A stretch of 64,000 bases of DNA from Rotaria socialis (taxonomy: Eukaryota), in NCBI GenBank assembly GCA_905331295.1, contig CAJNYD010000185.1, forward strand, positions 1 to 64,000. The letters are read 5' to 3'. Each line of letters opens with the position of its first letter. The stretch's first letter is position 1. The position numbers and the translations under genes were made by a program. Under the pieces are notes generated by a model. It searched no databases. It was not told the DNA's origin and was given only the letters and a program-made list of their open reading frames with translations. Below are positions 43,301-55,822 of the stretch, one piece after another.

Positions 43301-43801
43301 AAAGCTCATTATTGAGCATTTTTCGTGTAATAGTTTTGTTTTTCTTCGTATACGAATGTTCAAGATTTTTGTTCATACGTGTCAAAGTTGGAAACTCGAG
43401 AGCAGTGAATGATTCAATATTTTTCAGAAACTGATTGATCCTCAATTCCAACATAGCGTGTTGTCCGTAAGAATGCCATTATGTCAAAGTCTTCATAGTT
43501 TCAAAATTGAGAAAGGCTCGTGATTATGTTTGTTGGATTTGTTTGGAAAAGCAAGCAAGAAAACATGTTGCTATCTTACACTTATTAAATCAATCGGATT
43601 GGTGCCTATCGAAGCTTATGAACTGGTCAATTGTTACATCTTAAGATCGAACAAAGATCATACAAACAGCGTGTCTTTCACAGTATCGAAGGTACTGCTG
43701 TGAATTCTTTATTGTGAACATCATTTGGAAACAGTCGATTTCAAATAAGAAAAGTAACCATAGAAAACAATTAATCATATCTTTGATAGATTGACAATCT
43801 A

Positions 43802-45418
43802 TTATCCATCTTTTTCTTCTACTTTGTTATCCAGTAGTGGCAATGCTTGATCGTCATCATTGATTCCAAACATATCTTTTGCGTGTACTATCGCAAATTT
43901 TTTATAATCATTGGCTTTACCCAAAAACAAATTCATCAGTAGCGACATATATTGTTTCATTGACGGCGTATTGTTAATCAGGATGGCAAACTCTTTTTTC
44001 GAAAGATGTTTGTTTTGTTCATAAAACTGTTCAATAGATTGAACCATGCGATTAAATTTAGGCCGCACTTGCTCTTCCATTTTAGTAATTCTCTCCAAAG
44101 ATGAACAATCATCTTGTAATATTGATCTTAAATCGTCGGATTGCTCATTGATTATATTTTCAAATAGATGTCGCAAAGAGTTTACACTATTTTTGCAATG
44201 ATGTAACTGAAGATATTTGTTAGTTTTTACTTTTACTAAATAAGAAGTATCGTCTGGACGAATAATTTCAATAACATAGCCTTCGCCTTGAGTCTCAGCA
44301 CGAATATTTTTTATGATTTCACTTTTAGGTACCTGATTTGAAACCGATTTAAATGGAACTACATGTTCAAGAATCGATTGAAAACCATTTTCACCAAGGA
44401 ATGATATAAGACGTCGAGCAAATAGAGTCTCACCAGTTACATGATACCGAATTGAGAGTACAGTCAGTTCAGCACGAGGATAATCAAGAACGATTCGATT
44501 GGTAGGTGACGTATATTCCATATTGATAGTGTACTGAAGATGAGCTAAACGTTCGATTTCGCATTTAAATTGTCCTAAAATAAATTCATATTCAGTTGAA
44601 ATGGTTAATAGCGTATTATGGTCAAACAAAAATTATGAACTACCAATATCAAATCGATGCATACAGAAACTTCCTAAAGACTTCTGAATCGAAAAACGAA
44701 GACGCTTAATTCTTTCTTAACACTACTAACTATATAATATAACAAATAAATTGACAATATCGTGTGTAAGAAATTGTAGAATGACGGTATGGAAATTAAA
44801 TTTTAGTAGTCCTCAAAAATCTGCATATAATTTCTCTTAACAGTGTTTCAAAAGAAACCTATTGAATATCTTCTCTGTTTTTAATGCCAATTCAGTCATT
44901 GTCCGGCAAGACGTGAACTCATTAGTGATATACATATTGTTTGAATTTTTGAATTATGCTTATCGCGTGTTGAAACAAGCAACAATACCTTTTAGTAAAT
45001 CCATTGCTTCAGATGCCTGCGAAGAGTTGAACGATGTTTTTGATTTCAAAAGAACGATTGGTTGATTCGCCTGATTAAAATGAAGAAATGTTGATATTAG
45101 TGACCCATCAATCTTATCCATTTGATCGCCGAATTGTCCTAATTCATGCTCTCGCGAACCATTACCTTCGTCGTAATTGAAGAATTTTTCTGGTGGCAAG
45201 GAAACTAATTTAACGTTGTCAAGATCAGTGATGTTGAACATTGTTCCACGACAATTTAAAGCAGACGGAAGGTTATTGAAAGTAGTGTAGGAACATAGTC
45301 GATAATTGAATGTACGATATTTAGTAGAATCACGTTGAGCATCTTTATAATAGAAGCCATCGTCAACTGAACAGTTTGACATGAGATTATGATAAAGTTG
45401 AGGCATCAACTGAGCCAT
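43802..45418 (-). CDS. T4 RNA ligase 1 (Rnl1/RnlA)-family ATP-dependent RNA ligase, 400 aa, two exons (45418-44989, 44574-43802)
   Basis: The protein is colinear with T4 Rnl1 as recalled: LYHNLMSNC, YRTFNY, ALNCRGTMF, PPEKFFN, motif I KIDGSLISTF, KSK, NMEYTSPTNRIVLDY, motif IV EGYVI, motif V VKVKTNKYLQLH, and C-terminal SDDLRS...LMNLFLG. A phase-1 GT-AG intron at 44575-44988 (AAAG|GTATTG...ATTTTAG|GACAA) joins the two ORFs in frame. Confidence 0.92.
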
Positions 45419-45486
45419 GATTGAAGTAGACGTGCGTTATGTTTTCTAAGGAAGTAATTATTTAGTTGACATTAAACAAAATGTAG

Positions 45487-51689: not shown

Positions 51690-52077
51690 ATCGTACTGTG
51701 TAAACATTTGACCTCTAGCTATCGACATATATATGTGCTTGCAACTGATTTTCTTTTCAATATTTTCTACCAAGATCGTAAGAGCAATTGTATCAATTGA
51801 AATTAATTTCATCATTCTTATTATCATTTAAAAATATACAGCACATCATTCATACTCTCGTAAGTATCCACCTTTATCATCACACACACTCTCACTGTAA
51901 TATTACATTGAGATATTTCCATGCTATATGCCGCATATGACAAATGTCAATACTGATAAATTTCTCTTTTTGTTATCTTGTATGCGAGATCATGTGACTA
52001 TTTAAAATTGTCGTGTCTTATCATTTGTATGAACTGAAGATATAAAAGATTTTCCATTAGTTTCGCTCGCTCATTCT

Positions 52078-52965
52078 ATGTCTACCGCAACAGTAAATAT
52101 CGCGCGGATACCGGCAGCAAAAGAAAATGTTGAAGACGAGATCTTAGAATGTCTTCGACGTGATGGCGTAGCTATTGTTACTGGAATGTACACAAGAAGT
52201 CATGTTGAGCAAGTGAAACAAGACCTGGCACCACATTTTGATTCTGATACAATTGATCAATCAGGTTTTTTCCCTTCGACTACACAACGAGCCATGGGTT
52301 TCTTTGCCATTTCACGGGCTTGCATCGACATGGCCATGAATCCATTACTTTTATCTGTGGCCAATCGATTGCTAACATCGACGTATACTTTTTATGTCGG
52401 CTCAGAGAAAAAAACGGTTCAATCAAAGCCAATAATTTCATCAACGGTTGGCTTCCGTATAAATCCCGGTGGTCAGCAACAGGAACTTCATAGGGATGAT
52501 ACAGATTTTCACGCGAGGCCTTGCGATTGGCCGATGATGATAGGCTGTATTATTGCCCTTAGTCGAACTCACAAGAACAATGGAGCAACTCTTGTGATTC
52601 CTGGTTCACATTTGTGGGAAGATTCAAATCGAGCACCTCTTGTCGAAGAAGCTATCCCTGCTGAATTAGAGCCGGGTGATGCAGCCATCTTTGTTGGAAA
52701 TCTATATCATGCTGGAGGATCTAATCTAACTCTAGATGAGCGACGCGAAATAGCTGGTATATTTATGGCCAAAGGATTTTATCGACAAGCGGAAAATGAA
52801 TACTTAGCAGTACCACCTGAACGTTGCAAAGAACTCCAGTTGAGTCCAGCAGAATTACGTGTACTTGGCTATGGTATATCACAGCCTGCTTGCGGTTTCT
52901 TCAAATACAAAGATCCCATGGAATCTATTTTTGGAATAGTGGATGATGAGACGGTTCTTTTATAA
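52078..52965 (+). CDS. Phytanoyl-CoA dioxygenase (PhyH) family Fe(II)/2-oxoglutarate dioxygenase, intronless, fungal/microbial type
   Basis: The 295-aa ORF is uninterrupted. It has LRRDGVAIV, the HxD motif in QELHRDD, NGATLVIPGSHLW, the distal His in LYHAGGSN, and RQAENEYL...LGY. TATAAAA is at 52041-52047. Confidence 0.92.
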   Translation: MSTATVNIARIPAAKENVEDEILECLRRDGVAIVTGMYTRSHVEQVKQDLAPHFDSDTIDQSGFFPSTTQRAMGFFAISRACIDMAMNPLLLSVANRLLTSTYTFYVGSEKKTVQSKPIISSTVGFRINPGGQQQELHRDDTDFHARPCDWPMMIGCIIALSRTHKNNGATLVIPGSHLWEDSNRAPLVEEAIPAELEPGDAAIFVGNLYHAGGSNLTLDERREIAGIFMAKGFYRQAENEYLAVPPERCKELQLSPAELRVLGYGISQPACGFFKYKDPMESIFGIVDDETVLL

Positions 52966-54509: not shown

Positions 54510-55822
54510 TCGGGTGGCCCATAAAGAATGAGGGTTGTAGTATTTCATGGATATCTCGGAAACTATCCGCAATTTACCAATACTTTTTTCCCAATTGAAA
54601 GAGAATTTTCTTCTCTACAAATTCATAAGTAAACATTTTGTGCCATTGTACAATTTTCTGGTGCGAAAGTATGAAGAGTAAAGAGCTCCAAAACATAGTA
54701 CTTTCAAAATATAAAGCTGGACAATCTTGTATTATGATCCATGAGGATCTTCATGGTTCAGTAGGCTTATCAACCGTCGAAAGGTGGTGCAAAATGGTTC
54801 GAGACACCGGCCGGATTACTTTATTGAGATCACTGGGTCGTCCAACAACAGTAAGAACTGCAGCAAACATACAGAAGGTAAAAAAGCGACATGATCGATT
54901 ACGAATTTTTTCGTGCCGTAAAATTGCACGTGATTTGAGAATATCTCGTACAAGTGCTCAGAGAATTCTCAAAGATGATCTAACACTAAAATCTTTCAAG
55001 AAAAAAGCCCAGCCAAAAACTTCTGAAGCCCAAAAAGCAAAAAGATTAAAATTTGCAAATTGGATACGAACGAACTTTCGCAAAGAGGACACTTCGAGAT
55101 TTTTGTTTTCTGACGAAAAAATGTTCGACAGTGATAGAGTTTATTAACTTCCAAAACGAGAGAATCTGGGCGCCAAGTCGTGCTGATGCTGATGTGAAAG
55201 GTGGTATCAGACAGGTACAGAAGTTTCCTAAAAACGTTATGGTCTGGCTGGGAGCATGTTCCAAAGGGGTGTCCCCTTTGGTGTTTTTTAAAAACGGAAC
55301 AGTTGATCATGAGTGGTACATACAAGAAGTACTCCCTGTGGTTCTGAAATTCGGGAACGACATGTTCGCCGACAACTGGACTTTTCAACAAGATGAAGGA
55401 AGGCCGCATATTCACCGAAAAACTCAAGATTGGTGTCGAACTCATTTATCATGTTTCATTGACAAAGACCATTGGCCTCCAAATAGTCCTGATCTAAATC
55501 CCCTGGATTATTGTATTTGGGATGAATTTGCCGGTGCTATCAACTGGGATCTCGTGACATCCAAGGCGGCTCTTATCCATGAACTGAAACGTAGTGTGAA
55601 GAAAATCCGCCCTGAAGTTGTTTTTGAAAGTTGTGCATCTTGGACGAATCGATTGTATCGATTGAAACCAGCTAATGGCAACTGTTTAAATAAATAAATT
55701 TAGACCATTTTTGTAGAGAAAAAAATTCTCTATTAAACGAAAAAAAGAGAACAGAAAAATATGAAAAATTGATTAAGATATTGAAGAAACAGTGAAACCC
55801 TCATTCTTTATGGGCCACCGGA
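54510..55822 (+). mobile_element. Tc1/mariner superfamily DD37D (maT) DNA transposon, 1313 bp
   Basis: The 27-bp TIRs are TCGGGTGGCCCATAAAGAATGAGGGTT and AACCCTCATTCTTTATGGGCCACCGGA (1 mismatch). TA dinucleotides flank both ends (54508-54509, 55823-55824). A transposase lies inside. Confidence 0.95.
54671..55697 (+). pseudogene. DD37D transposase with a single +1 frameshift near 55145
   Basis: The N-terminus is HTH-like, followed by FSDEK, VMVWLG, FQQD and WPPNSPDLNPLDY. I count 37 residues between the second and third Asp. The two ORFs 54638-55147 and 55053-55697 join if one T is removed from GTTTATTAACTTC. Confidence 0.88.

What the first reader, a model, noticed from the sequence alone, without database searches (positions are those of the whole stretch)
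43802..45418. Domesticated phage T4-type tRNA-repair ligase (Rnl1) in an animal genome, with a spliceosomal intron
Seen in sequence: two ORFs join through a 414-nt phase-1 GT-AG intron into an intact 400-aa protein. It keeps nucleotidyltransferase motifs I (KIDGS), III (NMEY..PTNRIV), IV (EGYVI) and V (KVK), plus the C-terminal helical domain. Established knowledge: T4 Rnl1, working with T4 Pnk, reseals tRNA-Lys cut by the PrrC anticodon nuclease, and its C-terminal domain confers tRNA preference. Animals normally ligate tRNA halves with RtcB rather than an Rnl1 enzyme. Inference: this is a horizontally acquired, expressed RNA-repair enzyme that could counter ribotoxins from pathogens or RNA breakage from desiccation or radiation. 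The intron and metazoan neighbours argue against contamination. Foreign genes are common in bdelloids and RNA ligases may already be noted among them, so novelty must be checked.
Basis: partly seen in the sequence, partly recalled or inferred. Interest (0 to 1): 0.9.

Follow-up and report, generated by a model that had tools for sequence, protein, structure and literature searches.

The report
Phage-type RNA ligase in a rotifer
A bdelloid rotifer carries an intact, intron-containing gene for a phage-type RNA ligase that likely reseals tRNAs broken during infection; the gene is real, but this borrowed, infection-induced family has already been reported in related rotifers.

Summary
Two exons joined by a 414-nt phase-1 GT-AG intron encode a 400-aa protein identical to an NCBI Rotaria socialis model. 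It has both T4 Rnl1 domains and the active-site residues. Contigs from two related organisms, guessed to be RNA, skip exactly this intron, and one carries the rotifer spliced leader. dN/dS is 0.14-0.34, so this is a domesticated foreign gene. It is not new as a kind: Nowell et al. 2024 (PMC11258130) list Adineta genes with T4 Rnl1 as top hit, call them horizontally acquired, show them induced by a fungal pathogen and propose repair of ribotoxin damage. Adineta and Rotaria copies come from one old acquisition. The donor was not T4 (29% identity) but a clade of uncultured phages and unclassified large AT-rich replicons (41-51%). No Pnkp lies beside the gene or beside most near relatives. The gene is kept in species that do not survive drying. 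Best mechanism, inferred: an ATP-dependent ligase that reseals nicked RNA loops, probably tRNA, after other enzymes heal the ends. Activity is untested.

The parts
44989..45418 (-). Exon 1 (codons 1-143 plus one base): Rnl1 N-terminal subdomain with R57, K78, F80, motif I and K127
44575..44988 (-). 414-nt phase-1 GT-AG intron at codon 144; the same site and phase carry an intron in 6 other bdelloid-like loci
43802..44574 (-). Exon 2 (codon 144 to stop): motifs III, IV, V and the C-terminal helical domain
45113..45115 (-). Codon of K102, the predicted adenylated lysine (T4 K99)
   Evidence: alignment with T4 Rnl1
44225..44284 (-). Motif IV (E241) through motif V (K258, K260)
43907..44194 (-). 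T4_Rnl1_C domain (PF20819, residues 271-366), the part that gives T4 Rnl1 its tRNA preference
   Evidence: role in T4 from PMC6379707 passages
45419..45425 (-). 5' UTR end where the contig of related organism B carries the 23-nt Rotifera spliced leader; the acceptor used by the window's own organism is not shown
   Evidence: loose end; consensus in PMC3795323 Table 1; no leader copy in the window
43666..43801 (-). 3' UTR as far as the RNA-guessed contigs X10 and X9 reach
   Evidence: table 8

Best explanation
This spliced Rotaria gene encodes a T4-Rnl1-family protein, likely acquired once by an early bdelloid from an uncultured phage or large bacterial replicon, which is predicted to use ATP to reseal nicked RNA loops, likely tRNA anticodon loops, during infection. 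Shown: gene structure, both Rnl1 domains, active-site residues, splicing and trans-splicing in close relatives, purifying selection, and one clade with the Adineta copies. Taken from the T4 enzyme: K102 is adenylated, AMP passes to the RNA 5'-phosphate, the 3'-OH attacks, and the C domain steers the enzyme to tRNA. [quoted passage not shown] Also inferred: the Rotaria copy is infection-induced like its Adineta paralogues.
For: Pfam PF09511 scores 48.1 bits (cut-off 28.3) and PF20819 54.6 (cut-off 27). Of 19 T4 positions checked, 18 are identical and R318 is K. An AlphaFold model (pLDDT 88.7) has the three T4 Rnl1 entries as its top Foldseek hits (E 7.5e-22 to 2.4e-20), ahead of fungal Trl1. 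Spliced and leader-bearing contigs exist. dN/dS is 0.27 against X10 over codons 5-383 and 0.14-0.30 against four deeper loci. Adineta+Rotaria copies form a clade at 100/99. Published induction: 4 of 5 A. ricciae genes at 7 h and 24 h, 5 of 6 A. vaga genes at 7 h and 6 of 6 at 24 h, for the GO term 'virus tail fiber assembly', whose four A. ricciae genes all have T4 Rnl1 as top hit; the term does not appear in the two desiccation sheets. T4 Rnl1 plus Pnkp protects yeast from the tRNA ribotoxin zymocin (review PMC5699542, passage). Rnl1 ligases seal breaks in loops of stem-loops (PMC4408790, passage).
Against: No enzyme assay exists. The induction data are for Adineta copies only 49-55% identical to this protein, in other paralogue clades, and I did not map the published gene ids to my protein ids. 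R71, E100 and E185 of T4 are not kept, and the first two also differ in the donor clade. The TIGR02308 score (239.7) is just under its cut-off (242.25). No healing partner was found in the window, and the genome could not be searched. No ribotoxin is shown for any Rotaria pathogen. Animals have RtcB, which joins such ends directly. dN/dS over the C domain alone is 0.55 on few changes (4 synonymous, 9 non-synonymous).
Confidence: 0.5

Rival explanations
1. An active ligase whose target is ribosomal RNA cut at the sarcin-ricin loop by fungal ribotoxins, as Nowell et al. proposed for bdelloid RNA ligases in general.
For: Relatives of the pathogen used in that study secrete such ribotoxins, and the family is induced by it. 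The target is a loop in a stem-loop.
Against: The retained C domain directs T4 Rnl1 to tRNA. Access to an assembled ribosome and the end healing are unexplained. The authors call it a hypothesis.
Confidence: 0.2
2. A general RNA-repair ligase for oxidative, radiation or desiccation damage, switched on as part of a broad stress response rather than against a toxin.
For: Two horizontally acquired RNA ligases are over-expressed after radiation in A. vaga (PMC10809525, passages); their family could not be determined.
Against: RNA-ligase terms were not enriched in desiccation or in the radiation study as a whole. The gene is intact and constrained in two species that do not survive drying.
Confidence: 0.2
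3. A non-repair use: the protein adenylates, circularises or binds RNA ends in a host pathway such as small-RNA handling, and its induction is incidental.
For: One bdelloid paralogue lineage has lost the essential R54 equivalent yet persists in Adineta and Rotaria, so not every copy need be a ligase.
Against: The window's copy keeps R54, K75, K99, R166 and the motif IV-V residues.
Confidence: 0.08
4. Contamination or a dead relic of phage DNA.
For: The nearest non-rotifer relatives are all prokaryotic or viral where context is known.
Against: Intron conserved in position in 6 other loci; spliced and leader-bearing contigs; open frame in several assemblies of two species; dN/dS well under 1; spectrin, ion-channel, LITAF and IAP genes in the same window; a 14.4-kb DNA contig of another sample spans the tested stretch.
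Confidence: 0.02

Closest known systems
Bdelloid horizontally acquired RNA_lig_T4_1 (PF09511) ligases of Adineta vaga and A. ricciae (Nowell et al. 2024, PMC11258130; preprint 10.1101/2021.09.04.458992)
   Same: Same family and same clade; T4 Rnl1 top hit; introns; horizontal origin; ribotoxin-repair hypothesis already stated.
   Different: This is a Rotaria paralogue, 49-55% identical to the Adineta copies, in a subclade whose named members are all Rotaria. Its induction is unmeasured. The passages read give no donor lineage or age for the family.
Phage T4 Rnl1 (gp63/RnlA) with Pnkp, the anti-PrrC tRNA repair system
   Same: Domain order, fold, active-site residues and C-terminal domain.
   Different: 29% identity; a direct T4-like donor is rejected; no linked Pnkp; eukaryotic intron and trans-splicing.
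Rnl1 genes of uncultured phages and of unclassified AT-rich large replicons
   Same: 41-51% identity; the bdelloid clade sits inside this group (100/98, 100/99); most lack an adjacent Pnkp too.
   Different: Intronless, in gene-dense prokaryotic DNA; the exact sister lineage is unresolved.
Fungal/plant Trl1 ligase, vertebrate RLIG1 (C12orf29), Naegleria Rnl1-family ligases
   Same: Eukaryotic ATP-dependent 5'-3' RNA ligases; Naegleria is reported to have seven Rnl1-family members.
   Different: Trl1 has another C domain and fused healing domains; RLIG1 lacks the Rnl1 RNA-binding domain; Trl1 ranks well below T4 Rnl1 in the fold search.

Membership tests
Rnl1 family (T4 RNA ligase 1) | Nucleotidyltransferase domain PF09511 above the Pfam cut-off | tested here: met
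   48.1 bits against 28.3, residues 55-263
Rnl1 family (T4 RNA ligase 1) | Family-defining C-terminal helical domain PF20819 | tested here: met
   54.6 bits against 27, residues 271-366; helical in the model
Rnl1 family (T4 RNA ligase 1) | Motif I, III, IV, V residues and ATP-contacting R54/K75 | tested here: met
   K102, D104, E163, E241, G242, K258, K260, R57, K78; R54/K75 essential per PMC6379707; the choice of the other positions is partly recalled
Rnl1 family (T4 RNA ligase 1) | Fold closest to T4 Rnl1 | tested here: met
   Top three Foldseek hits are T4 Rnl1; TM 0.55-0.56 with rmsd about 14 A, probably from a different domain angle, which was not checked
Rnl1 family (T4 RNA ligase 1) | ATP-dependent joining of 3'-OH and 5'-phosphate RNA ends, with tRNA preference | not testable with these tools
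   Needs recombinant protein
TIGR02308 equivalog (T4 RnlA) | Score above the curated cut-off of 242.25 | tested here: not met
   239.7 bits; of 6 Rnl1 proteins scanned only the Adineta paralogue P0041 (251.9) and P0052 (262.4) pass. Not filed under this equivalog.
T4 Rnl1-Pnkp tRNA repair system | A partner polynucleotide kinase-phosphatase | tested here: inconclusive
   None in the 64-kb window; no fused form over 700 aa found, weak evidence; whole genome not held. One A. ricciae gene has a baculovirus kinase/ligase fusion as top hit.
Bdelloid acquired Rnl1-like ligases (Nowell 2024) | One clade with Adineta PF09511 copies, nested among non-metazoan sequences | tested here: met
   100/99; support 1.0 for 20 rows
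Bdelloid acquired Rnl1-like ligases (Nowell 2024) | Induction by fungal infection | not testable with these tools
   Published for Adineta only; the runs here are contigs and give no expression level
Trl1 (Rnl6) tRNA ligase | Trl1-specific C domain and fused kinase/CPD modules | tested here: not met
   400 aa, only the two Rnl1 Pfam domains; Trl1 hits at E 4e-11 or weaker

The most novel reading that the evidence does not exclude
Bdelloids run a phage-style heal-and-seal tRNA repair pathway as an inducible immune effector: a ligase captured from an uncultured large phage or an unclassified Betaproteobacteria-associated giant replicon, wired to host end-healing enzymes, neutralises anticodon-cutting toxins of pathogens, and its paralogues have split into active and adenylation-dead forms. 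No animal case of this turned up in my searches.
Probability: 0.3. Interest if true: 0.65.

Novelty: new member of a known kind. Interest (0 to 1): 0.3.

Why it matters
The family is known but, in the papers I could read, never tested biochemically. This copy has the most T4-like active site among the paralogue clades and is a ready reagent for asking whether an animal repairs toxin-cut RNA with a phage enzyme. The C domain points to tRNA rather than the ribosomal target proposed in print, and the lack of a linked Pnkp makes the healing partner a concrete question. Retention in species that cannot dry favours infection over desiccation as the selective force. As a discovery it is modest, because existence, origin by transfer and the immune hypothesis are published.

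Tried and rejected
Own genome: none is held, so a Pnkp partner, RtcB, Clp1/ANGEL2 and the paralogue count could not be checked. Run search: no RNA holder listed on record; five runs guessed to be RNA were laid. Fused forms over 700 aa: none among 2193 candidates, weak evidence. GTDB scans: 0 of 75 pattern matches were relatives; 19 of 167 were, all distant (25-32%, one 53-aa piece at 43%), so no named cellular donor was found. T4-like phages as donor: rejected; the best cultured phage is 38%. AT-rich replicons as direct sister: they give the best identities among non-rotifer hits, but no tree supports the pairing. A quick tree placed P0202 (cluster on contigs up to 554 kb) inside the bdelloid clade; the careful tree moved it out. 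Giant-virus donor: the ESM Atlas's top feature clusters are labelled mostly Nucleocytoviricota, but AT-rich loci carry a betaproteobacterial tmRNA (2 of 7 scanned) and only 2 of 157 ORFs had a mimivirus-type early motif (motif recalled); not supported, not excluded. A second Atlas query and a second fold comparison did not complete. The AU test for all bdelloids with the Didymodactylos fragment did not finish and was replaced by trees with the full-length protein. The Burroughs and Aravind review is not held. The radiation paper's gene tables were not among its held supplements. A literature search for the giant replicons found nothing relevant. Earlier scan findings: nothing. No complex prediction was run, as no partner was in hand.

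Full report
Observation. The gene lies on the minus strand as described: exon 1 45418-44989, a 414-nt phase-1 GT-AG intron, exon 2 44574-43802. The spliced frame is 400 aa, has no internal stop and equals NCBI model P0165 of Rotaria socialis; of six other full-length models compared, three more R. socialis models differ at 1-2 positions and three R. magnacalcarata models at 32-33. The exons match consecutive halves of phrog_562 and of T4 Rnl1. The whole protein passes both Pfam cut-offs, PF09511 and PF20819, and misses the TIGR02308 equivalog cut-off by 2.5 bits. Coding GC is 0.347, the window's 0.327. The window also encodes spectrin, a ligand-gated ion channel, a LITAF protein and an IAP, so the context is animal.

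Expression and domestication. No holder was on record as RNA. Of five runs guessed to be RNA that I laid, two (X10, X12; other organisms, about 95% alike) have a contig that skips exactly 414 bases with the expected ends; three do not cover the junction; the DNA run X7 keeps the intron in a 14.4-kb contig. The X10 contig ends 7 bases before the ATG in 23 loose letters that are the exact reverse complement of the Rotifera spliced leader in PMC3795323 Table 1 (passages read), and the window has no copy of that leader. This marks the contig as a trans-spliced mRNA in a close relative; it gives no level. Of 15 loci given to, 10 covered both halves: 6 have their best intron at codon 144, phase 1 (49-355 nt), 3 are open without an intron (two near-identical bdelloid-like loci and one at 45% that is probably prokaryotic), and 1 had no single-intron solution. 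These loci are called bdelloid-like from identity and low coding density, not from names. dN/dS against X10 is 0.27 over codons 5-383 (22 synonymous, 22 non-synonymous; 53 of 63 differences used, 6 unlisted and 4 at or beyond the 3' end left out), 0.34 with the tail, and 0.14-0.30 against four deeper loci, two of them near saturation.

Protein. Against T4 Rnl1 the window's protein keeps 18 of 19 positions checked; R318 is K here but R in R. magnacalcarata. In the wider list of 31, R71, E100, E185, G269 and R318 differ. R54 and K75 are essential in T4 per PMC6379707, which also states that the C domain gives specificity for tRNA anticodon-loop breaks (passages); my choice of the remaining positions is partly recalled. 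The AlphaFold model (pLDDT 88.7, pTM 0.72) finds T4 Rnl1 first and fungal Trl1 next.

Origin. Homologues occur in Rotaria (R. socialis, magnacalcarata, sordida, two Silwood species), Adineta (vaga, ricciae, steineri) and Didymodactylos. No other named animal appeared among the rows listed (119; 120 of 339), but most rows are unnamed and the exhaustive profile search (9847 hits, best 150 listed) carries no names, so absence from other animals is not shown. Adineta and Rotaria copies form one clade (1.0 for 20 of 180 rows; 100/99). The Didymodactylos copy joins it at 94/92 in one careful tree and 67/91 in another, fell apart from it as a fragment and in one quick tree, and shares a short deletion at the intron site: one origin is likely, not shown. 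The bdelloid clade lies within a well supported group of uncultured phage and metagenomic sequences; grouping it with T4 and two T4-like rows is rejected (AU p 0.014). Trees used LG+G4 on subsets I chose (37-71 rows), after removing near-duplicates at 88% and three distant rows. The highest non-rotifer identities (44-51%) are to genes on gene-dense contigs of 27-32% GC, up to 785 kb among fetched loci and 2.2 Mb in the protein table. Their neighbours include WGR-PARP, TerD, photolyase, SUF, NusG and a seryl-type tRNA synthetase domain (Pfam class II core), and 2 of 7 loci scanned hold a betaproteobacterial permuted tmRNA. The same peptide patterns did not find this group in GTDB or IMG/VR. Context is known for 12 such loci; the other members are assigned by tree only. 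Which lineage is sister to the rotifers is unresolved.

Partner. A profile of T4-like Pnkp found nothing in the window, in 0 of 13 near-phage loci (8 distinct contigs, some fetched twice) and a kinase-only hit in 1 of 12 AT-rich loci, against 41 of 80 other Rnl1 loci of 15 kb or more. Flanks were only 8-10 kb. T4 Rnl1 needs ends healed to 3'-OH and 5'-phosphate (PMC1920235, passages), and humans have Clp1 and ANGEL2 as possible healers (PMC11494293, passages). Whether bdelloids use these is inference.

What is in print. Nowell et al. 2024 (PMC11258130; passages of main text, rows of supplement files 1, 5, 14, 15 and passages of file 9; files 11, 13, 16 not searched and one file too large to read) report RNA ligases, PF09511 among them, as horizontally acquired and strongly induced by a fungal pathogen, and propose repair of ribotoxin damage. 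Four of seven A. ricciae ligase rows have T4 Rnl1 as top hit. The GO term carried by those four is up in 4 of 5 A. ricciae genes at both times and in 5 of 6 and 6 of 6 A. vaga genes, and is absent from the desiccation sheets (text). The 2021 preprint already cites introns against contamination (passages; its supplements are closed). PMC10809525 reports two acquired RNA ligases up after radiation, family unknown to me (passages). PMC4632278 shows that R. socialis and R. magnacalcarata live permanently in water and did not survive drying (passages). Searches listed no paper on the enzyme's activity, donor or Rotaria copies; subscription journals are mostly not held.

Mechanism and verdict. The most likely function is ATP-dependent resealing of nicked RNA loops, probably tRNA anticodon loops, in infection, after healing in trans (0.5). 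T4 Rnl1 with Pnkp protects yeast against zymocin (PMC5699542, passage), so the chemistry works in a eukaryote. Ribosomal repair (0.2), general stress repair (0.2) and a non-repair use (0.08) remain open; contamination is excluded in practice. The feature is real and well kept, but it is a further member of a published family with a published hypothesis. Interest 0.3.

Noticed in passing
L065, L067-L071, L076, L081, L083, L086 (contigs up to 785 kb); P0062 and P0139 on contigs of 2.2 Mb: A group of AT-rich, gene-dense large replicons with mixed cellular-type genes, a betaproteobacterial permuted tmRNA (L068 18970-19367, L076 15431-15868) and frequent basic C-terminal tails (46 of 157 ORFs). Not found in GTDB or IMG/VR by the Rnl1 patterns; could be giant phages, megaplasmids or an unplaced bacterial lineage.
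   Followed up: partly
P0102 (A. vaga), P0129 (A. ricciae), P0125 and P0127 (Rotaria spp.): A bdelloid Rnl1 paralogue lineage with cysteine at the essential R54 position and further changes, kept in two genera: a possible adenylation-dead or repurposed copy.
   Followed up: partly
L072-L074, 10001-11143 in L072/L073: An intronless copy inside the bdelloid clade, in low-coding-density DNA: likely intron loss.
   Followed up: partly
window 52033-52965 (+): Single-ORF PhyH-family Fe(II)/2-oxoglutarate dioxygenase whose best solved relatives are secondary-metabolism enzymes such as swnH1 and nvfE; a second likely foreign gene 6.6 kb from the ligase.
   Followed up: partly
L006 9161-10189, L007 9377-10105, L081 12207-12932: In near-donor contigs a PF09414 (Rnl2-type) ligase lies next to or near Rnl1; bdelloids also have induced PF09414 ligases, so joint capture is worth testing.
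   Followed up: no
window 54629-55697 (+): Two overlapping frames that read like a Tc1/mariner-type transposase (my reading; no Pfam hit at E 0.001).
   Followed up: no
window 45231-45262: A 32-base piece of exon 1 also matches another contig in runs X7 and X13 with unlike flanks; unexplained, perhaps a paralogue fragment or repeat.
   Followed up: no
P0202 cluster (109 members, contigs up to 554 kb): An Rnl1 of the near-donor group on contigs of megaphage size (size comparison recalled, not tested).
   Followed up: no
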